IMG/VR virus record: IMGVR_UViG_3300037067_010289
Span: 1 to 64,000 of that record
Strand: one strand, 5' to 3'
Length of the DNA stretch: 64,000 nt
Origin: a virus
Lineage: Duplodnaviria; Caudoviricetes
Part shown: positions 850-18,904 of the stretch, piece by piece
How the letters are laid out: the number at the start of each line of letters is the position of its first letter
How positions within the stretch are numbered: the stretch's first letter is position 1
Notes under the pieces: generated by a model
Told to the model about the DNA's origin: nothing
Database searches by the model: none
What the model saw: only the letters and a program-made list of their open reading frames with translations
Translations under genes and position numbers: made by a program

Positions 850-923
850 TCCGAGATCGACTAACGGTAGGTCAACGGGCTTTGAACCCGTTAGCGAAGG
901 TTCGAGTCCTTCCCTCGGAACCA
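850..923 (+). tRNA. tRNA-Gln(UUG)
   Basis: Cloverleaf; anticodon arm ACGGG-CTTTGAA-CCCGT, T arm GAAGG-TTCGAGT-CCTTC, encoded CCA. Confidence 0.9.
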
Positions 924-926
924 TCT

Positions 927-998
927 TGGCATGTAGCACAATGGTAGTGCGCTCGGCTGTTAACCGAATGGTTCCAGGTTCGAGTCCTGGCATGCCAG
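927..998 (+). tRNA. tRNA-Asn(GUU)
   Basis: Acceptor TGGCATG/CATGCCA, anticodon loop CTGTTAA, TTCGA T loop; CCA not encoded. Confidence 0.9.
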
Positions 999-1000
999 TT

Positions 1001-1036
1001 TGATATGTAGCACAACGGTGGTGTGCTTGGCTGTTA
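1001..1036 (+). pseudogene. degenerate 5' half of a second tRNA-Asn
   Basis: 30/36 identical to 927-962; breaks off in the anticodon loop just before the HNH ORF. Confidence 0.7.
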
Positions 1037-1039
1037 GTT

Positions 1040-1438
1040 ATGAATTCAAACAATAGAAAAAAGAGTCAGCAGTTAGGAATTAATTTTAGCACAGCCACGC
1101 ATAGGTTAAAAAAGCTTGTTATGTTTGACCTTGTTCAAAAAACATTTCAAGATACTTGTTTTAGGTGCGGGCAGAAGATTAAATTTCCTGATGAACTTTC
1201 GGTCGAGCATAAAGAAGCTTGGCTGGATAGCCCCAATCCTGTTGATTTGTTTTTTAACCTAAACAATCTGGCTTTTAGCCACTTAACTTGCAACACGGCT
1301 TCAGCAAGAAGAACAAATAAGAAATACCATACTTTAGCCGAGCGTCATGCAGCCAACTTAAAACATGGACGCGAAAGTATGAAAAAGTGGTATACGACTG
1401 AAAAACGAAGACAAAAGAAATTAAGAACTGGCTATTAA
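1040..1438 (+). CDS. HNH endonuclease (free-standing, putative homing)
   Basis: CFRCG...SVEHK...NNLAFSHLTCN motif and basic C-terminus; sits inside the tRNA cluster. Confidence 0.8.
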   Translation: MNSNNRKKSQQLGINFSTATHRLKKLVMFDLVQKTFQDTCFRCGQKIKFPDELSVEHKEAWLDSPNPVDLFFNLNNLAFSHLTCNTASARRTNKKYHTLAERHAANLKHGRESMKKWYTTEKRRQKKLRTGY

Positions 1439-1455
1439 ACCTGCTGTTTTACTGT

Positions 1456-1543
1456 GGGCGTGTAGGTAAGAGGCTAAAGCCAGCAGCCTGTAAAGCTGTA
1501 CCCGCTTGCGGGTTCGAAGGTTCAAATCCTTCTGCGCCCACCA
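1456..1543 (+). tRNA. tRNA-Tyr(GUA)
   Basis: Anticodon loop CTGTAAA, long variable arm, CCA end. Confidence 0.9.
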
Positions 1544-1550
1544 ATTTGCT

Positions 1551-1625
1551 GTGGCCGTGGGATAAAGTGGTTAGTCCGGCTCCCTGTGAAGGAGAAGGTT
1601 CCGTTCGACTCGGACGGTCACCCCA
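1551..1625 (+). tRNA. tRNA-His(GUG)
   Basis: Acceptor GTGGCCG/CGGTCAC, anticodon loop CTGTGAA, C discriminator, CCA; the -1 base is T, not G. Confidence 0.8.
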
Positions 1626-1633
1626 AGTTTTAC

Positions 1634-1710
1634 GGTCTATTAGAGAAGTGGCTGTTCTCGCGGCCCTGTCACGGCTGAGACCACGGGTTCGAATCCCGTA
1701 TAGACCGCCA
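1634..1710 (+). tRNA. tRNA-Asp(GUC)
   Basis: Acceptor GGTCTAT/ATAGACC, anticodon loop CTGTCAC, GGTTCGAATCC, CCA. Confidence 0.9.
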
Positions 1711-1711
1711 A

Positions 1712-1785
1712 GCGGGTTTGGCCGAGTGGGTAGGCTCTGGTCTTCCAAACCAGTTAGACGAGTTCGATTCTCGTAGCCCGCTCCA
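1712..1785 (+). tRNA. tRNA-Gly(UCC)
   Basis: Acceptor GCGGGTT/AGCCCGC, anticodon loop CTTCCAA, CCA. Confidence 0.9.
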
Positions 1786-1789
1786 GTTT

Positions 1790-1865
1790 GCCCTTGTAGC
1801 TCAAATGGTAGAGCGTCTGCCTTGTAAGCAGAATGTTGGGAGTCCAATTCTCTCCAGGGGCTCCA
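1790..1865 (+). tRNA. tRNA-Thr(UGU)
   Basis: Anticodon loop CTTGTAA, canonical D arm, CCA; atypical T loop (TCCAATT). Confidence 0.8.
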
Positions 1866-10960: not shown

Positions 10961-13900
10961 ATGGCGCTTTTACCAGAACCTCCGAGCAATGTGCACATGC
11001 CTGTTGAGCCGAAAGAGGCTAAGCATGTACTGGCTACAGGTACGTGGACTGACGAAGCCGCCCTAAAAATCGTTCTACAAGACACTAATCGTGCTGAGAA
11101 CTTTGAGTCGACTAAGAGCTGGGTCATGGGTTGGGTTCAGGCGTCGACGCTATACCAGAGTCCTTGGACCTCAAGATTTTGGGAAGGCACGCAAAGCGAA
11201 CGCGCCAATGTTCCTCTTTTCACGGTAGCCACCCACGTTAACTCGTTGACGCCTCAAATCATGAAGGGGCTCTTTTATGACGAACCTCCTTTCATGATTC
11301 AGAATCGTCCAGGCACCAAGATATCAGCGGCGCGAGCAGCAGGTGCGATACTTGATTATCAACTTGAAGACGCGGACTTCCGCGAAAATTTACGCTTAGG
11401 CGTGATGAACGCCCTTCTATTTGGTACTACGATTTGGAAGTGGGGCTGGCAGGAGTACACGCGAGAGCGCGTGACGTATCGTCGTAAAACTAGCGGGTTG
11501 AAAATTCCCGATGGCATCACGGGTGAAGAAACTGTCATTGAGAACAATGATGACGACAATATTGAAGAAGAGGTTGTTGAAGAAGAAATTAGCCGCCCAT
11601 TCTTCGATCATATCGTAAACTTGCGGCACGTACTGGTTGATCCAGGGTTAAGTGTTCCGGACATTACCAAAGCTCGCTATGTCGTTCATCGTATGTACAT
11701 GACGTTCGATGAACTGGATAAGCTGCGCGAGCGTCCTGGTATAAAGTTGCCTTCGAAGGAAGAATTATTGATGCTATTCTTTCCTCCTACGGAGGAAGCA
11801 AAACCTGCGATTGCGGAAATCTCGATCCGTAATCCCCTCTGGGATGCACGTGCAGAACCTCGGTATGAAAACACCAGTGATGATCCGTTCGCAAAACCGT
11901 TAGAAGTGCTGGAACGTTGGGATGCTGAACGAGTTATCATGGTGCTCCAGCAAAAGCTGGTTATCCTTAACGAAAAAAACCCTTACGGAAAAATTCCGTT
12001 TTTCTCGGTTGGCTGGTGGGATGTTCCGGAAGCGTTTTGGGGAATGGGCCTTGGGAAGGCACAGCCGCTAGACGCTAAAATTCTTACTCCTTTGGGCTGG
12101 AAACAAATGGGGGATATTAAACCCGATGATTTAGTTATGGGCTCTGATGGAAAACCTCATAAGGTTTTGGAAGTTTTCCCCCAAGGAGAAAAAGAGGTTT
12201 TTAAGGTAACCTTTAGCGATGGGGCGACTACAGAATGCTGTAAAGAACATCTTTGGCAGATTGAAAGCGCATTGAGCAAACGTCCTTTGCGCCGAGGTTG
12301 GAAAACCAAGGTATTTCAACTTCAAGATTTTAAAGATGCATTGAAAACAAAAACAGGGGCTAACAAGTATTTTATTCCTATTACAGAGCCTATTGCGTTT
12401 TCAAAACAAGAACTACCGATCCATCCTTACTTATTGGGAATTCTCATTGGAGATGGAAATCTAACTACCGATACGCCACGATTTTCTAGTGCTGATGCTG
12501 AAATTGTTGAAGCAGTTCAAAAATTACTTCCCAAAGGAATGCAAATTGTAGGTGTTCCTAACCGGCGTTATGATTATAAAATAACATCAGTAGATCATAG
12601 GTGTAATACGGTTTTAAGAATTGTCAAAGAGTTGGGGCTTAACTGCAAAGCAGAGCACAAGTTTATTCCCGATATTTATAAGTTTTCTTCTATCGAACAA
12701 CGTAAAGAAATTTTGGCTGGATTGCTTGATAGCGACGGTACCGCTGGAAAAAATGGAGCCGCAAGCTTTTCTAGTTCGTCGGAACAGTTGTGCGATGACG
12801 TTCAATTTTTAGTTGAATCGTTAGGCGGAATAGCAAAAAAGTTTATTAAGCCTATCCCTGCACGAGGTAATTTTCCAGCTTATAGCCTTTCTATAGGCTT
12901 GGTATTTAATCCATTCAAACTTACTAGAAAAATAGAGCGATACAAACCACGAACAAAGTATATGCCTTCTCGTGGTTTTAGTGCTGTTGAAGCAGTGGGA
13001 ACTAAACCGTGCCAGTGTATTCTGGTTGATACACCGGACCATCTTTATTTAACAGATCACTGCATTGTTACACACAATACCGTAGGTTCTGACCAGCGGT
13101 TACAGCAGGGCGTGACTAATACGTGGCTTGACCAGCTAGCGCTGAATCTTAATGGCGTGTACACGCGAGTGCGCGGTAAGAGCGTTCCTACGCAGAGTAT
13201 CCGCGTATCCCCAGGCAAGATCATCGATGTGGACTCTAAGGATGACTTGAATCCTCTGCAAAGGTCGAATCCGGTTCCGGAAGCGTTACAAGCCTTGGAG
13301 CTTTCTGAGCGTCGAGCAGAGTCGGTATCGGGTGCTAACGAGTTTTCGACCCAAGGTGTTGCAGGAGCCAGCGGCCACTCGAATTTGGCGCGTACTGCGT
13401 CAGGCGCGAATTTACTAGCCGCAGGGTCTGGATCGCGTATCGAAGATTTTGTAGATAAGCTTGCGAATCAAGTTATTCTGCCTTTCTTGTATGAGGCGCA
13501 TGACCTGAACTGCAAGTTGCTCTCGCTGTCGTCGGTGAAGCATATTCTTAGTGATGAGTTGGAGCACGAATTTATCACCGAGAAACAGGGCGACATACTA
13601 GACATTGTTAACAGTCGTGTTAAGTTTTCAATCTTGGCTGGGGCTAAGCTGTCTTCTCGCCGCACCATGACGCAGGGCTTGCCGATGCTGATCCAGTTTT
13701 TGCAGGCTCAGCCTATTGTTTCGGCGCTTGCTATCGAGAAAAAGAAAGTTAGCGTTGAAGAACTGATTCGCATGTTCTTCGAGATTGCGGATTGGAAGAA
13801 TTACAACGACGTGATCGTGGAGATGACGCCGGAAGACGAACAGCGCTGGAAGGCTTCGCAGCCTGGGGCAGCAGTTCAGCAGCAACTCGCCGCTAAGGCG

Positions 13901-14059
13901 CAATTGCAACAGCAATCGTTTGAACAAAAACAGCAGCTGACTGACCAAGAGAATATTGCCCGAGCTGCACGCGAAGTTCTGCGGCAGGGTTTTGAAAAAG
14001 CCTCGGAGCCCTTGATGGTGGGCGGTGAGCCTGGAGGAAAAGCACTTGGGTCTGAATAG
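10961..14059 (+). CDS. portal protein (intein-containing; ~692 aa after splicing)
   Basis: Follows terL; NPYGKIPF, ARTASG and Gln-rich C-terminus typical of podovirus portals. Confidence 0.85.
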   Translation: MALLPEPPSNVHMPVEPKEAKHVLATGTWTDEAALKIVLQDTNRAENFESTKSWVMGWVQASTLYQSPWTSRFWEGTQSERANVPLFTVATHVNSLTPQIMKGLFYDEPPFMIQNRPGTKISAARAAGAILDYQLEDADFRENLRLGVMNALLFGTTIWKWGWQEYTRERVTYRRKTSGLKIPDGITGEETVIENNDDDNIEEEVVEEEISRPFFDHIVNLRHVLVDPGLSVPDITKARYVVHRMYMTFDELDKLRERPGIKLPSKEELLMLFFPPTEEAKPAIAEISIRNPLWDARAEPRYENTSDDPFAKPLEVLERWDAERVIMVLQQKLVILNEKNPYGKIPFFSVGWWDVPEAFWGMGLGKAQPLDAKILTPLGWKQMGDIKPDDLVMGSDGKPHKVLEVFPQGEKEVFKVTFSDGATTECCKEHLWQIESALSKRPLRRGWKTKVFQLQDFKDALKTKTGANKYFIPITEPIAFSKQELPIHPYLLGILIGDGNLTTDTPRFSSADAEIVEAVQKLLPKGMQIVGVPNRRYDYKITSVDHRCNTVLRIVKELGLNCKAEHKFIPDIYKFSSIEQRKEILAGLLDSDGTAGKNGAASFSSSSEQLCDDVQFLVESLGGIAKKFIKPIPARGNFPAYSLSIGLVFNPFKLTRKIERYKPRTKYMPSRGFSAVEAVGTKPCQCILVDTPDHLYLTDHCIVTHNTVGSDQRLQQGVTNTWLDQLALNLNGVYTRVRGKSVPTQSIRVSPGKIIDVDSKDDLNPLQRSNPVPEALQALELSERRAESVSGANEFSTQGVAGASGHSNLARTASGANLLAAGSGSRIEDFVDKLANQVILPFLYEAHDLNCKLLSLSSVKHILSDELEHEFITEKQGDILDIVNSRVKFSILAGAKLSSRRTMTQGLPMLIQFLQAQPIVSALAIEKKKVSVEELIRMFFEIADWKNYNDVIVEMTPEDEQRWKASQPGAAVQQQLAAKAQLQQQSFEQKQQLTDQENIARAAREVLRQGFEKASEPLMVGGEPGGKALGSE
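12059..13078 (+). mobile_element. Ala-start class 3 intein (340 aa) with LAGLIDADG endonuclease in portal
   Basis: GK|AQPLDAKILTP...EHLW...LGILIGDG...LAGLLDSDG...CQCILV...VTHN|T. Confidence 0.85.
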
Positions 14060-15794: not shown

Positions 15795-18011
15795 ATGAGC
15801 TATTCTCCTGCAAGTATTCTTACGTCGGGATCGCTGCCCAACCTCGTGGCTATCTACTATGAGCGGTCGGCAATTCCCAACCTGTAAATTGCCTTTGGGT
15901 TGGCTACATAAACGTTCTGAAAAATAGGAAGGCACAGACCCCGTTTATGTCGATGACTGACTTGTTTGGTCATCGTAAAAATCTGACTATATCCGTTAAT
16001 ATCTTAGGTTTTTTGTGGTATAGTAATAGTAAAAGAAAATCTAAGACAAGACGGAGCGAAGATTCTCATGAAAGACAACGATAAAACAAATTGGGCGTAT
16101 TTAGCTGGGTTGCTCGACGGAGAAGGTTGTTTTACGATAACAGGTACGTGGAAGAATCGTAAAGGTATTTGGCGCACGAAAACAGGGCCAAACACGTACT
16201 TTCACATCAACCTTATTATTAGTTTGTATAACACTGATCTTAAGGTTATGAAATGGTTAGTAGACCATTTCGGTGGTGTGTATTATGTTCATCATCCTTC
16301 TAAAAAACCGAGTCACAAAATAGGGTATTCGTGGCATCCAAAAGGTGCCAAGAATAAAGAGCTTCTTCTTTTGGGAATTTTACCGTATCTGGTAATCAAA
16401 AGAGAACAGGCGAAACTTTCTCTTGAATATATCCGGTTGGACGGGAAGGCTTGTCAAGAAAAACGGTTAGAACTGAGAGAAAAGATTCAAACCCTTAATG
16501 GACACGGCATGGGAAAACGCCTAACGACTAATATGTCAGACGGCCCTTCGGGGTTGAAGATAGAGTCTGGGCTTAGTGGCGACACTAAGAGTGCTCTTGA
16601 GGTGACTCAAGCTGTGGCCAGAACCACAGAGCTTTTGCCGCAAGTTAGTGAAAGCGTAGCCTAAACACAACTGAAACAGAAACCGTTGCCTTTGCGTTCT
16701 GGGAACCAAATTCAATTTTTCACCTACAGTTTGCTTTCCGGCAATACCGCGCAAGCAGCTGAAGGAACCGTGGGTTCGCCCATCGCGGAATCTTCGACCA
16801 AGATTATCGCAACCGTTGGGCAGTACGCGGATTACATTAACAGTTCGGACCTGAGTATGGATGTGGCAATCGACGACCCGTCGTTGCTGCAAAACCTCTC
16901 TACCGAACTCAACTATCGTTTGGCGTTGACGCTGAACTCTCTGGTTCAGATCACGGCAGACGCGGCCCAGGGCGTCGATGGTTCGGTGACGATTACCTTG
17001 GCTGATGGTTCTTATCTGACGGCGAATAACATTCGTTCGGCGTGCCAGCAACTGGCGGGTATCAATGCTCGTCCGTTGACCGGCGACGGCTACTACGGTG
17101 GGATTATCCATCCGTTCGTAGTCCGCGACGTGCTGAATGATACGTCGTTCAACGGCTTGACCGATATCTTGAAGCGGTCGGCTGACGGTCAAGAAAAACT
17201 GCTTGCACCGGTGCCCAACGAGGATACGATCACGTTTGGCGGCGTGAAATTCAAGCAGACAACCACTACTCCGACGACAACCATTTCCGGCAACACTTAC
17301 TACAACACGTATTTGTTTGCTGACGATGCGCTGTTTTCGGTTTTCCTTGGGAAGAACCCTCAAACTGGTGAGAAGAACTACCGTCTTCTTATCCAGGAGG
17401 CACCAGCTCAAGGCAGCGTAGCCGATCCGGCTCGCCAAATCGGTGGATACAGCGACCTGTCCACTGTAGACCTTATGTAGCATGAGGGGTCAGCTACAAC
17501 GTTGTATTTAACGGCGTTGTCTAAAGTTCTCCTGATTGACTCGAACCCTGAGACGGCAACGAGGCGGAACCCGAAAGGGACCGTGAGAGACTGAGCGGAG
17601 AACCCCGAAAGGGATGCAACAGTCCGTCCTTGCGCTAAATGAAGTGCAAGAGGCTGGCAGAAATGACCAGCCCCGCCGCAAGGCGAGTAACACCGAGTAA
17701 ATACACCAACACACTGCGTAATTAATCCGGGGCGCAGTTGAATTGTCATGGTAATCCGCCCGGTTCTACAATGACAATTCGGAGACTTAACAGATTGCGG
17801 GTCTCCTTAAACTCTCTCTGATTGACTTGAACGCTGAAATGCCAACAAGGGGCAAGCCGAAAGGTAGCCTGAACGACTAAGCGAGAGAGCAGCGAAAGCT
17901 GATGCGATAGTCTGCACTGCAAGAAATAGTAACTTGCAGAGGCTGGCAGAAATGACCAGCCCCGCCGTAAGGCGAGTAACAAACGGCCAATCCGAAACGT
18001 CCTCAAGCTAG
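15795..18011 (+). CDS. major capsid protein (N4-gp56-like), 7 exons: join(15795..15883,15928..15958,16674..17448,17487..17502,17698..17719,17759..17787,17987..18011), 328 aa
   Basis: Joined exons total 987 nt with no internal stop: MSYSPAS...AIPNLKAQTPFMSMTKQKPLPLRSGNQIQFF...DPARQIGGWVSYNVKYTNTLRPGSTMTIRRLQSETSSS*; every 5' exon ends in U and every intron ends in G. Confidence 0.85.
15884..15927 (+). other. core-less group I-like mini-intron A (44 nt)
   Basis: P1 CCAACCU/GGGUUGG with U.G; P10 UGCCUUU/GAAGGCA; terminal G; in-frame TAA if retained. Confidence 0.75.
16016..16024 (+). promoter_or_regulatory. possible extended -10 promoter for the intron-encoded endonuclease
   Basis: TG-G-TATAGT about 45 nt upstream of the LAGLIDADG start, in an AT-rich loop of the intron. 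Confidence 0.4.
16068..16664 (+). CDS. single-motif LAGLIDADG homing endonuclease (intron-encoded)
   Basis: WAYLAGLLDGEG and LPYLVIKREQA motifs. Confidence 0.9.
   Translation: MKDNDKTNWAYLAGLLDGEGCFTITGTWKNRKGIWRTKTGPNTYFHINLIISLYNTDLKVMKWLVDHFGGVYYVHHPSKKPSHKIGYSWHPKGAKNKELLLLGILPYLVIKREQAKLSLEYIRLDGKACQEKRLELREKIQTLNGHGMGKRLTTNMSDGPSGLKIESGLSGDTKSALEVTQAVARTTELLPQVSESVA
17449..17486 (+). other. core-less group I-like mini-intron C (38 nt)
   Basis: P1 GGUGGAU/GUCCACU with U.G; P10 GACCU/GGGUC; terminal G; removal creates a Trp codon (U|GG). Confidence 0.75.
17503..17697 (+). ncRNA. compact ORF-less group I intron D (195 nt)
   Basis: P1 ACAACGU/GCGUUGU, P10 UGUAUUUA/UAAAUACA, P3 GUUCUCC/GGAGAAC, P7 GACUG/CAGUC, GNRA hairpins, terminal G. 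Confidence 0.9.
17720..17758 (+). other. core-less group I-like mini-intron E (39 nt)
   Basis: P1 ACUGCGU/GCGCAGU with U.G; P10 CCGGG/CCCGG; terminal G; in-frame TAA if retained. Confidence 0.75.
17788..17986 (+). ncRNA. compact ORF-less group I intron F (199 nt)
   Basis: P1 GGAGACU/GGUCUCC, P10 GAUUG/CAAUC, P3 CUCUCUC/GAGAGAG, P7 GACUA/UAGUC, terminal G. Confidence 0.9.
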
Positions 18012-18036: not shown

Positions 18037-18109
18037 AGAATGAGGGCAGTCTGGTTTGGGGTGGTGCCTCCACACCGCCCCAAATCAGCAAAACTCATGG
18101 AGGTGGGTT

Positions 18110-18904
18110 TTGTATCGCTTATACTTAATAACAAATAGCGTTAATCAAAAAGTTTATATAGGCCAAACGGTTAGAAGTTTAAAAGCACGATGGAGGTCGC
18201 ATCTAAGTGCTTCCAAAGAGGCTAGAGTAAAAGATGTCTACTTTTATCGCGCTATTAACAAATATGGGCCAGCAGCTTTTACTATGGAAGAACTGGCTCA
18301 AACTGAAAGTAAAGTAGAAATTGATAGGCTAGAAAAATTTTGGATTGGTTTTTGCTTGTCCTTTCAAAAAGACAAAGGCTATAACACGACCTTTGGCGGC
18401 GAAGGTGGGAGACAAACCCCCGAGGTTCGTCGAAAAATTGGAGAAGCATCGAAACGACTTTGGCAAGACCCTGATTTTCGAAAAAGAAGTTGTCAAACAC
18501 GAAAAGGCTTGCTTGTTGGGGCGCGAAACCCCATGTTTGGCAAGAGTTCTTTTAAAGGTAAAAAGCATACGGACCTAACTAAACTTAAGTTAAGTCTTAT
18601 TAAAAAAGAACAGTTTTCTGACCCTAGCTTTAAACTAAAAATGACTTTGGCCAGCACAGGTAAGCACCACACAGCAGCGGGGCGAGCTAATATTTCTCGT
18701 GGGCTGCAAGGAAACCAATATCGTAAAGGCATACCCCACTCGGAAGAAGTAAAAGAACGAATTCGTAATTCAATGAAAGCTGCGTGGGTTCTTAGAAAGA
18801 ATAAAAAGTTTAATTCTGCCCAAGAGTTGTCCGAAACCGGATTGGGGAAAGACAAAAACTTAGCAGAATCTATGGATGCACCGATTACCCTTGCCGGGGT
18901 TTGA
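18110..18904 (+). CDS. GIY-YIG homing endonuclease with NUMOD3-like repeats (free-standing)
   Basis: LYLITNSVNQKVYIGQT, GYN-x-T-x-GG, NPMFGK, KHT and PHSEE repeats; TTG start after GGAGG. Confidence 0.85.
   Translation: MYRLYLITNSVNQKVYIGQTVRSLKARWRSHLSASKEARVKDVYFYRAINKYGPAAFTMEELAQTESKVEIDRLEKFWIGFCLSFQKDKGYNTTFGGEGGRQTPEVRRKIGEASKRLWQDPDFRKRSCQTRKGLLVGARNPMFGKSSFKGKKHTDLTKLKLSLIKKEQFSDPSFKLKMTLASTGKHHTAAGRANISRGLQGNQYRKGIPHSEEVKERIRNSMKAAWVLRKNKKFNSAQELSETGLGKDKNLAESMDAPITLAGV

What the first reader, a model, noticed from the sequence alone, without database searches (positions are those of the whole stretch)
15795..18011. Capsid gene with three core-less mini-introns, each paired with a full group I intron: candidate 'one ribozyme, two introns' system
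Seen: the capsid ORF is intact (328 aa) only if six segments are removed. Segments B, D and F are full group I introns. Segments A (44 nt), C (38 nt) and E (39 nt) each follow a U and end in G. Each forms a 7-bp P1 closed by U.G at the required junction and a P10 with the next exon. Each lies 31, 16 or 29 nt upstream of a full intron. Established: group I splicing needs the P3-P7 core with its G-binding site, which cannot fit in about 40 nt. No micro-exon length is a multiple of 3, so skipping one shifts the frame, and retaining any mini-intron gives a stop. The three share architecture but not sequence. Inference: each adjacent core splices both its own intron and the upstream satellite. I know of no description of this arrangement but could not search the literature.
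Basis: partly seen in the sequence, partly recalled or inferred. Interest (0 to 1): 0.97.

Follow-up and report, generated by a model that had tools for sequence, protein, structure and literature searches.

The report
Core-less mini-introns in phage capsid gene
The only capsid gene of a complete 94-kb soil phage is split by three ordinary self-splicing (group I) introns and three 38-44-base mini-introns. The mini-introns keep a group I intron's splice-site helices but have no catalytic part, so they most likely borrow the ribozyme of the next intron downstream, an arrangement I found no published description of.

Summary
Removing six segments (A 15884-15927, B 15959-16673, C 17449-17486, D 17503-17697, E 17720-17758, F 17788-17986) gives a 328-aa N4-gp56-type capsid protein. 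It is 281/328 identical to intron-less homologues, which contain every micro-exon residue and no mini-intron residue.

B, D and F are true group I introns. D and F have a covariation-supported P3/P7 pseudoknot core.

A, C and E follow U and end in G. Each has a P1 with a U.G pair, a directly abutting P10, and a third helix between its tail and the next exon.

The same design recurs in relatives: 26 distinct minis of 31-51 nt at 12 sites, with helices that covary. No locus has a mini without a full intron. All 21 minis with downstream coverage have a full intron downstream. In 14 of 16 close pairs the tail helix abuts that intron's P1 strand.

The shortest minis have no room for a guanosine site, yet the terminal G is invariant. 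The best reading is helper-dependent group I mini-introns.

No RNA evidence could be obtained. This scan noted similar mini-introns before, in relatives and in other phages. The closest published analogue is the 56-81-nt degenerate group I introns of fungal rDNA.

The parts
15795..15883 (+). Capsid exon 1 (89 nt; M..PNL, ends in phase 2)
   Evidence: tblastn against P0002 and the spliced profile alignment
15884..15927 (+). Mini-intron A (44 nt). P1 is 15877-15883 with 15897-15903, with U15883.G15897. P10 is 15890-15896 with 15928-15934. The tail helix is 15906-15914 with 15942-15950.
   Evidence: It is absent from intron-less homologues. Read-through gives CTG TAA.
15928..15958 (+). Micro-exon 2 (31 nt, KAQTPFMSMT)
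   Evidence: The residues are present in all intron-less homologues
15959..16673 (+). Group I intron B (715 nt) carrying the LAGLIDADG ORF 16068-16664. P1 is 15952-15958 with 15968-15974. P10 is 15962-15967 with 16674-16679. The 3' core (P7, P3', P8, J8/7, P9) lies at 16516-16619.
   Evidence: Rfam Intron_gpI 22.5 bits. Pfam LAGLIDADG_1. A nhmmer profile of Rfam-positive relatives gives E 5e-13.
16674..17448 (+). Capsid exon 3 (775 nt)
   Evidence: PHROG 1357 major head protein. 80-84% identity to N4-gp56-type capsids.
17449..17486 (+). Mini-intron C (38 nt); it splits a Trp codon as T|GG. P1 is 17442-17448 with 17459-17465. P10 is 17454-17458 with 17487-17491. The tail helix is 17476-17481 with 17493-17498, which overlaps D's P1 strand by 3 nt.
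17487..17502 (+). Micro-exon 4 (16 nt, (W)VSYNV)
17503..17697 (+). Group I intron D (195 nt, no P2, no ORF). P1 is 17496-17502 with 17514-17520. P10 is 17504-17510 with 17698-17704. P3 is 17526-17532 with 17597-17603. P7 is 17587 and 17589-17593 with 17620-17625, with A17588 bulged. P8 is 17604-17613.
   Evidence: Alignment A1 and the covariation counts: 97.4% of cells paired and 0/500 shuffles as good
17698..17719 (+). Exon 5 (22 nt, KYTNTLR)
17720..17758 (+). Mini-intron E (39 nt, in phase, stop at its 2nd codon). P1 is 17713-17719 with 17732-17738. P10 is 17727-17731 with 17759-17763. The tail helix is 17739-17749 with 17771-17781 and abuts F's P1 strand.
17759..17787 (+). Micro-exon 6 (29 nt, PGSTMTIRRL)
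17788..17986 (+). Group I intron F (199 nt, related to D). P1 is 17781-17787 with 17800-17806. P10 is 17793-17797 with 17988-17992.
17987..18011 (+). Exon 7 (QSETSSS plus the TAG stop)
18056..18904 (+). Free-standing GIY-YIG/NUMOD3 homing endonuclease gene just after the capsid stop (context only, not part of the gene)
   Evidence: Pfam and PHROG hits

Best explanation
A, C and E are non-autonomous group I mini-introns. Each keeps only the substrate half of a group I intron. That half is an internal guide that pairs with the end of the 5' exon (P1, U.G at the splice site) and, without a gap, with the start of the 3' exon (P10). It also includes a terminal G and a tail that pairs with the following exon. 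In close pairs the tail pairs right next to the P1 strand of the next full intron. None has a P3-P9 core or a guanosine pocket. The proposed mechanism is this. The core of a full group I intron in the same pre-mRNA, usually the next one downstream (B for A, D for C, F for E), docks the mini's P1. It lets exogenous G cleave after the U, then binds the mini's terminal G and ligates the exons held on the guide. The core also removes its own intron. Shown here: the anatomy, its conservation and covariation at 12 sites, the strict co-occurrence with full introns, the position upstream of them, and the tether geometry. Inferred: that the minis are removed from RNA at all, that the chemistry is group I, and which core does it. 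The minis probably arose from full introns by loss of the core. Sites 89, 119 and 933 hold a full intron in some relatives and a mini in others.
For: (1) The capsid gene must be functional. The genome is complete (94,289 bp, direct terminal repeats, CheckV 100%) and has a single capsid locus. The spliced product is 328 aa and 86% identical to homologues.
(2) All 26 distinct minis at 12 sites follow U and end in G. All have a P1 of 6-10 bp with U.G and a P10 of 3-9 bp at offset 0. Swapped-exon controls give 7/570. The helices covary with synonymous exon changes.
(3) The shortest minis are 31-33 nt and every nucleotide is used in exon pairing, so there is no room for P7. The terminal G is nevertheless invariant, which implies a guanosine site supplied from elsewhere.
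(4) Among full-coverage loci, 40 have no inserts, 9 have full introns only, 24 have minis plus full introns, and 0 have minis only. All 21 minis with coverage have a full intron downstream, at 16-45 nt in 16 of them. The nearest full intron is the downstream one in 20/21.
(5) In 14/16 close pairs a tail/exon helix of at least 6 bp ends within -3 to +2 nt of the partner's P1 strand. Shuffles predict 2.9, with no simulated set out of 200,000 reaching 14.
(6) The two bases before the terminal G are identical in mini and partner in 7/21 pairs; 37/10,000 shuffles do as well. In C/D they fit D's J7/9.
(7) The partners are real ribozymes.
(8) The predicted fold of each mini with its flanks is two hairpins, P1 and the tail helix, whose loops carry the two P10 strands.
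Against: There are no RNA data. The co-occurrence and proximity could instead reflect origin by deletion of full introns in intron-rich lineages, or hitch-hiking in co-conversion tracts of mobile neighbours. In five distinct minis the nearest full intron is 116-222 nt away, and their tail helix lies next to the mini's own 3' splice site rather than next to a partner. The P9.0-type match fails for E/F and for three 'AAG' minis. The loci are related, so the shuffle statistics overstate independence; 12 sites is the safer count. A 67-nt fungal degenerate intron has been reported to splice in vitro without a recognisable core (PMC3160393).
Confidence: 0.6

Rival explanations
1. The minis are autonomous minimal ribozymes. 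Together with their exon context they fold into something that catalyses its own group-I-like splicing, as claimed for the 67-nt PaSSU intron of Phialophora.
For: PMC3160393 reports in vitro splicing of a 67-nt intron that has P1, P10 and an intron/3'-exon pairing (PM) when about 300 nt of 3' exon is present. The phage minis have the same three helices.
Against: The minis are 31-51 nt and fully used by P1, P10 and the tail helix, with no P7-like helix. They sit at 12 different exon contexts, and those contexts are conserved in intron-less homologues, so the exons cannot have been shaped as ribozyme parts. No mini occurs without a full intron in the gene.
Confidence: 0.1
2. The minis are removed by a protein machine, a host or phage endonuclease plus an RNA ligase, that recognises the two-hairpin fold. 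The group-I-like features would be leftovers of their origin.
For: The guide lines the two exons up as a continuous helix, a geometry that nick-sealing ligases like. I have no direct evidence for this.
Against: An invariant U.G at the 5' site and an invariant terminal G (26/26) are specific needs of group I chemistry, not of cut-and-ligate pathways. The link to downstream ribozymes would go unexplained. I did not search for a candidate enzyme.
Confidence: 0.07
3. The minis stay in the mRNA and are skipped by the ribosome (programmed translational bypassing, as in T4 gene 60 or the byps of Magnusiomyces mitochondria).
For: The size (31-51 nt) is in the bypass range. A has a stop codon right after the take-off codon (CTG TAA). 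Hairpins lie inside the gap.
Against: None of the 17 phase-0 minis has a landing codon matching the take-off codon where the homologous protein requires it. Nine of 26 split a codon; C splits Trp as T|GG. The U/G boundary rule and the P1/P10 covariation have no role in bypassing.
Confidence: 0.02
4. The capsid gene is dead, as in a decaying or defective phage, and the minis are meaningless insertions.
For: None beyond the broken reading frame.
Against: The genome is complete with terminal repeats and has a single capsid locus. All exons are clean and 86% identical to homologues. The same architecture is present in many independent samples and contigs of 60-109 kb. The helices covary.
Confidence: 0.02

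Closest known systems
Small 'degenerate' group I introns of fungal nuclear SSU rDNA (Phialophora PaSSU 67 nt, Arthonia lapidicola, Porpidia crustulata; 56-81 nt; PMC3160393)
   Same: Tiny inserts at group I intron sites that keep P1, P10 and a pairing between the intron and the 3' exon ('PM'). They lack P3-P6, P8 and P9, and are thought to derive from full introns by deletion.
   Different: The phage minis are half the size (31-51 nt) and have no P7-like helix. They use a canonical terminal G, whereas PaSSU uses U. They interrupt a protein-coding phage gene and occur at 12 sites rather than one or two. They are always accompanied by a full group I intron downstream in the same transcript, often tethered to its P1 strand. 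The fungal introns are described as splicing on their own with help from exon context.
Tandem group I introns separated by short exons in phage genes (Staphylococcus phage Twort orf142, three introns with exon skipping; Landthaler and Shub 1999, from my own knowledge)
   Same: Several group I introns in one phage structural gene, tiny exons between them, and ribozymes able to act on a neighbour's splice site.
   Different: In Twort every intron has its own core. Here three of the six inserts have none.
Euglena plastid group III introns and twintrons (from my own knowledge)
   Same: Drastically abbreviated relatives of a self-splicing intron class (about 100 nt, most domains lost). They are presumed to depend on catalytic parts supplied in trans and are found in intron-rich genes.
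   Different: They are group II-derived, use branch-point chemistry and live in an organelle. No fixed upstream-neighbour arrangement is known.
Naturally split, trans-splicing group I introns (Isoetes and placozoan mitochondrial cox1; PMC2731911, PMC5436844)
   Same: Natural group I catalysis in which the substrate helices and the core are not one contiguous intron.
   Different: There the two halves belong to one intron and reassemble a single core. Here one complete intron would serve a second, separate pair of splice sites.
T4 gene 60 translational bypass and its mobile cassette (from my own knowledge)
   Same: A gap of about 50 nt in an essential phage gene, next to homing-endonuclease-associated DNA.
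   Different: The defining matched take-off and landing codons are absent. The boundaries obey group I rules instead.

Membership tests
Group I self-splicing introns (Rfam RF00028): segments B, D, F | P1 helix with a U.G pair at the 5' splice site, a terminal G, and P10 with the 3' exon | tested here: met
   B: GAUGACU/GGUCAUC, ends in G, P10 6 bp. D: ACAACGU/GCGUUGU, ends in G, P10 7 bp. F: GGAGACU/GGUCUCC, ends in G, P10 5 bp.
Group I self-splicing introns (Rfam RF00028): segments B, D, F | Conserved core: P3/P7 pseudoknot enclosing P4-P6, then P8, with the bulge plus G:C pair in P7 that forms the guanosine site | tested here: met
   D and F: 39 pairs in 7 helices, 97.4% of cells paired, 30 pairs with changes on both sides, 0/500 shuffles as good. 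P7 has a bulge next to an invariant G:C. B: its 3' core matches a profile of Rfam-positive relatives at E 5e-13.
Group I self-splicing introns (Rfam RF00028): segments B, D, F | Score at or above Rfam's gathering threshold (50 bits) | tested here: not met
   B scores 22.5 bits; D and F give no hit even at E<10. Relatives of the same two intron families score 48.6-60.6 bits, and D-type introns score 20-22 bits. The model is weak on this subtype and on ORF-bearing introns.
Group I self-splicing introns (Rfam RF00028): segments B, D, F | Self-splicing with guanosine and Mg2+ | not testable with these tools
   Needs in vitro transcription and splicing.
Group I introns: mini-introns A, C, E | P1 with U.G, a terminal G, and P10 | tested here: met
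   3/3 in the window and 26/26 including relatives; swapped-exon controls give 7/570.
Group I introns: mini-introns A, C, E | Own catalytic core (P3-P9) with a guanosine-binding P7 | tested here: not met
   At 38-44 nt (31-51 in relatives) they are fully taken up by the P10 strand, the P1 strand and the tail helix, with no further helix. They are therefore not ribozymes of this family, only substrates of its chemistry.
Fungal small degenerate group I introns (PaSSU type, PMC3160393) | P1, P10 and PM (intron/3'-exon pairing) kept while P2-P6, P8 and P9 are lost | tested here: met
   The tail helix averages 7.65 bp against 5.28 bp with foreign exons, 0/5000 permutations as good.
Fungal small degenerate group I introns (PaSSU type, PMC3160393) | A putative P7 within the intron; size 56-81 nt; location in nuclear SSU rDNA; common descent with the Phialophora/Arthonia clade | tested here: not met
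   No P7-like helix, 31-51 nt, a phage protein-coding gene, and no sequence relation.
Programmed translational bypassing (T4 gene 60 type) | Matched take-off and landing codons flanking the gap | tested here: not met
   0/17 phase-0 minis have them; 9/26 split a codon.
N4-gp56-family major capsid protein (the host gene) | Full-length similarity to the family | tested here: met
   PHROG 1357 at E 3e-11. 260 homologues, many named N4-gp56 family major capsid protein by JGI. 281/328 identity after conceptual splicing.

The most novel reading that the evidence does not exclude
A new kind of selfish or dependent RNA element: non-autonomous group I introns. They have shed the whole ribozyme and survive in an essential phage gene by presenting a pre-aligned P1/P10/terminal-G substrate to the catalytic core of a neighbouring intron, to which they are often tethered by an extra helix. 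One ribozyme would then process two separate introns. The tether, which overlaps or abuts the helper's own P1 strand, could enforce 'mini first, helper second'.
Probability: 0.55. Interest if true: 0.93.

Novelty: new variant of a known kind. Interest (0 to 1): 0.88.

Why it matters
If the minis are spliced by a neighbour's core, a natural group I ribozyme would be acting on a second, separate pair of splice sites. It would show a route by which self-splicing introns decay into helper-dependent ones. That is the step long postulated between autonomous ribozyme introns and introns served by a shared catalytic machine; so far it is illustrated mainly by group II and group III introns.

It also matters for annotation. 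Gene callers truncate these capsid genes: one search lists products of 236-290 aa instead of 328. Rfam misses both the small D-type introns and the minis. As a result, the intron load of soil phage structural genes is underestimated. In this family I counted more than 20 insertion sites in a 984-nt gene.

The system is small. A 600-nt transcript holds two helpers and two minis, so it is directly testable in vitro.

Tried and rejected
**RNA evidence.** I looked for spliced transcripts among 105 related contigs by comparing conceptually spliced CDS with intron-less contigs. None was closer than about 84% over the full length; the only matches of 99-100% were short fragments that cover no mini.

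**Rfam.** On the window alone Rfam gave only a weak hit in B and nothing for D or F. This was resolved with relatives and covariation.

**Translational bypass.** Rejected.

**Pseudogene.** Rejected.

**Tool-made alignment of the site-895 minis.** MAFFT alignment A2 put two of six rows out of register, so I did not use it for pair counts. I relied on scripted helix searches with swapped-exon and shuffle controls instead.

**P9.0-type test.** I asked whether the two bases before the terminal G fit the partner's J7/9. The result is only partly supportive: C/D, L060, L049, L050 and L069 fit, while E/F and three 'AAG' minis do not.

**Other copies in the window.** nhmmer with the D/F family profile found no further copies in the 64-kb window. 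BLAST of D against the whole 94-kb genome found only D and F.

**Origin by core deletion.** The idea that minis are core-deleted copies of full introns at the same site rests only on shared sites (89, 119, 933) and loosely similar termini. I did not test it formally.

**Literature.** Seven full-text searches found no description of core-less group I mini-introns in phages.
Full report
**What is there.** The window is the first 64 kb of a complete 94,289-bp virus record with direct terminal repeats. Positions 15795-18011 (+) hold its only major capsid gene.
- The largest open piece (16686-17480) matches PHROG 1357 'major head protein'.
- It is 39.6% identical to the major head protein of Tunturiibacter phage Tunturi_3.
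- It is 80-84% identical to some hundred metagenomic proteins of 327-328 aa, several named 'N4-gp56 family major capsid protein'. Those homologues are uninterrupted.
- tblastn and a spliced alignment against a nucleotide profile of 20 intron-less CDS show that the window encodes the whole protein in seven pieces.
- The pieces are 15795-15883, 15928-15958, 16674-17448, 17487-17502, 17698-17719, 17759-17787 and 17987-18011.
- Joined, they give 987 nt, that is 328 aa plus a stop, with 281/328 residues identical to P0002.
- The micro-exons encode KAQTPFMSMT, (W)VSYNV and PGSTMTIRRL, which are present in the homologues. The residues of the small inserts are not.

**The three large inserts are group I introns.**
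- B (15959-16673) carries a LAGLIDADG ORF and gives a weak Rfam Intron_gpI hit (22.5 bits).
- B's 3' core (16516-16619) matches, at E 5e-13, a profile built from ORF-less relatives that score 48.6-60.6 bits with Rfam in related capsid genes.
- D (195 nt) and F (199 nt) get no Rfam hit. They belong to a family of about 200-nt introns found at many sites of this gene in relatives.
- An alignment of 14 members (A1) supports P3, P4-P6, P9, P9.1 and the P7 pseudoknot, which has a bulged base next to an invariant G:C pair.
- The counts are 97.4% of cells paired, 30 of 39 pairs with compensatory changes and 0/500 shuffles as good.
- Each intron has a 7-bp P1 with U.G, a terminal G and a P10. There is no P2.

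**The three small inserts.** Each of A, C and E follows a U and ends in G. Read 5' to 3', each contains:
- a few bases;
- a strand complementary to the first 5-7 nt of the next exon (P10);
- directly abutting it, a strand complementary to the last 7 nt of the previous exon, whose 5' G pairs with the splice-site U (P1);
- a spacer;
- a tail complementary to the interior of the next exon (A 9 bp, C 6 bp, E 11 bp);
- a few bases and the final G.

RNAfold of each mini with its flanks gives exactly two hairpins, P1 and the tail helix. The two P10 strands face each other in the two loops. Nothing is left over for a core.

**The design is general.** I fetched 105 related loci and mapped all of them with the same aligner.
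- There are 26 distinct mini-inserts of 31-51 nt at 12 sites of the gene (reference nt 89, 95, 119, 267, 275, 558, 807, 830, 893, 895, 899, 933).
- After allowing a 1-nt slide at a wobble base, all 26 follow U and end in G.
- All 26 have a P1 of at least 6 bp and a P10 of at least 3 bp with no gap between the two guide strands. When a mini is paired with the exon flanks of another site, this happens in 7/570 cases.
- The helices covary with synonymous exon changes. At site 895 the P1 strand GUCCAC faces GGUGGAU, and GGCCUC faces GAGGCU.
- At site 895 the P10 strand GACCU faces GGGUC, GCACU faces GGUGC, and AACCC faces GGGUU.
- At site 558 the tails ACAACA, ACAACGA and AACGACG follow the exon.
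- The tail helix averages 7.65 bp against 5.28 bp with foreign exons, and 0/5000 permutations do as well, also with one mini per site.
- Of 26 minis, 25 give a stop when read through. Nine split a codon. None of the 17 in phase 0 has the matched take-off and landing codons that ribosomal bypassing needs.

**Link to full introns.**
- Among loci that cover the whole gene, 40 have no insert, 9 have full introns only, 24 have minis plus full introns, and none has a mini alone.
- All 21 distinct minis with downstream coverage have a full intron downstream.
- The distances are 16-45 nt in 16 minis and 116-222 nt in five. The nearest full intron is the downstream one in 20 of 21.
- In 14 of the 16 close pairs a tail/exon helix of at least 6 bp ends within -3 to +2 nt of the partner's P1 strand. 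Shuffles predict 2.9, with no simulated set out of 200,000 reaching 14.
- With long micro-exons (38-44 nt) this helix moves distally and stays next to the partner. In the window it abuts B's P1, overlaps D's P1 by 3 nt and overlaps F's P1 by 1 nt.
- The two bases before the terminal G are identical in mini and partner in 7/21 pairs (37/10,000 shuffles). In the D family those bases pair with J7/9 (P9.0), with covariation. C fits D in this respect. E does not fit F.
- One mini site can be served by different partners. Site 558 has a 204-nt D-type intron or a 635-nt B-type intron at site 576. Site 895 has partners at 911 or at 933. The requirement therefore seems to be 'a group I core nearby', not one particular ribozyme.
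- As a curiosity, Rfam's covariance model, run on a relative, takes the mini's P1 as the P1 of the downstream intron. It treats the micro-exon and the intron's own P1 as an insertion at the P2 position.

**Most likely mechanism.** From established knowledge of group I introns, the core recognises P1 largely through its backbone and the U.G wobble, and it binds exogenous G and then the terminal G in one pocket in P7. The general scheme is in PMC3984707.
- An invariant U.G and an invariant terminal G in elements too small to hold that pocket argue that the pocket comes from elsewhere.
- The genomic data point to the next full intron downstream.
- I therefore read A, C and E as helper-dependent group I mini-introns. 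They probably arose from full introns by loss of the core, since sites 89, 119 and 933 hold a full intron in some relatives.
- The tether probably brings the mini's pre-aligned P1/P10 next to the helper. Because it competes with the helper's own P1, it may favour removal of the mini first.
- These steps are inferred. No RNA data could be obtained.
- My confidence in helper dependence is about 0.6. Confidence that the minis are removed from RNA by group-I-type chemistry of some kind is higher, about 0.8.
- The association could also arise from origin by deletion in intron-rich lineages, or from co-conversion with mobile neighbours. The five distant pairs show that adjacency is not obligatory.

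**Comparison with what is known.**
- The nearest published analogue I found is the set of 56-81-nt 'degenerate' group I introns of fungal SSU rDNA. They keep P1, P10, a putative P7 and a pairing between the intron and the 3' exon (PM). One of them was reported to splice in vitro only with about 300 nt of 3' exon (PMC3160393).
- The phage minis share P1, P10 and PM. They differ in several ways: they are half the size, lack any P7, use a canonical terminal G, sit in a protein-coding phage gene at many sites, and always accompany a full intron.
- Tandem phage introns with tiny exons (Twort orf142) and the abbreviated group III introns of Euglena are looser analogues, recalled from my own knowledge.
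- Seven full-text searches found no description of core-less group I mini-introns in phages.
- This scan has noted the same kind of element before, as unchecked AI notes: a 46-nt mini in relatives of this capsid family, and minis in other phages including a crAss-like one.

**Verdict.** I class the finding as a new variant of a known kind (degenerate group I introns), with a substantial chance that it is a mechanistically new, helper-dependent class.

Noticed in passing
Related loci L002-L105 (capsid genes): The 984-nt capsid gene of this phage family is an intron hot-spot. Full group I introns of two related families (195-232 nt without an ORF, 600-1050 nt with one) occur at more than 20 sites. 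One gene can carry up to seven inserts (L038: sites 64, 163, 827/831, 893, 911, 933).
   Followed up: partly
window 17503-17697 and 17788-17986: D (195 nt) and F (199 nt) are complete group I introns without P2 that Rfam's RF00028 model does not detect at all. As far as I recall, they are at or below the size of the smallest well-known self-splicing introns (Azoarcus, about 205 nt).
   Followed up: partly
window 18056-18904: A free-standing GIY-YIG/NUMOD3 homing endonuclease gene starts 45 nt after the capsid stop codon. A long hairpin lies at about 18051-18088, just before its start.
   Followed up: no
window 16068-16664: The LAGLIDADG ORF of intron B runs into the ribozyme's 3' core (16516-16619), so coding sequence and catalytic RNA overlap by about 100 nt.
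   Followed up: no
window 10961-14059: The 1032-aa portal ORF (SU10_portal) has a weak LAGLIDADG_3 hit in its middle, according to the precomputed Pfam list for the identical gene on a sister contig. This suggests an intein.
   Followed up: no
window 850-1862: A cluster of seven tRNA genes lies at the left end of the genome (Rfam).
   Followed up: no
L033 5130-5373: A related phage contig carries a permuted tmRNA about 800 nt downstream of its capsid gene (Rfam RF04321, 77.4 bits, E 2.9e-13).
   Followed up: no
L049 1992-2213; L050 3417-3631: Rfam's group I model, when it weakly hits D-type introns that have an upstream mini, begins its alignment at the mini's P1 rather than at the intron's own P1.
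   Followed up: partly
L090 (whole locus): One short metagenomic contig shows many irregular inserts (31-643 nt) around reference nt 243-308 and 697. My aligner could not resolve them cleanly, and I left it out of all counts.
   Followed up: no
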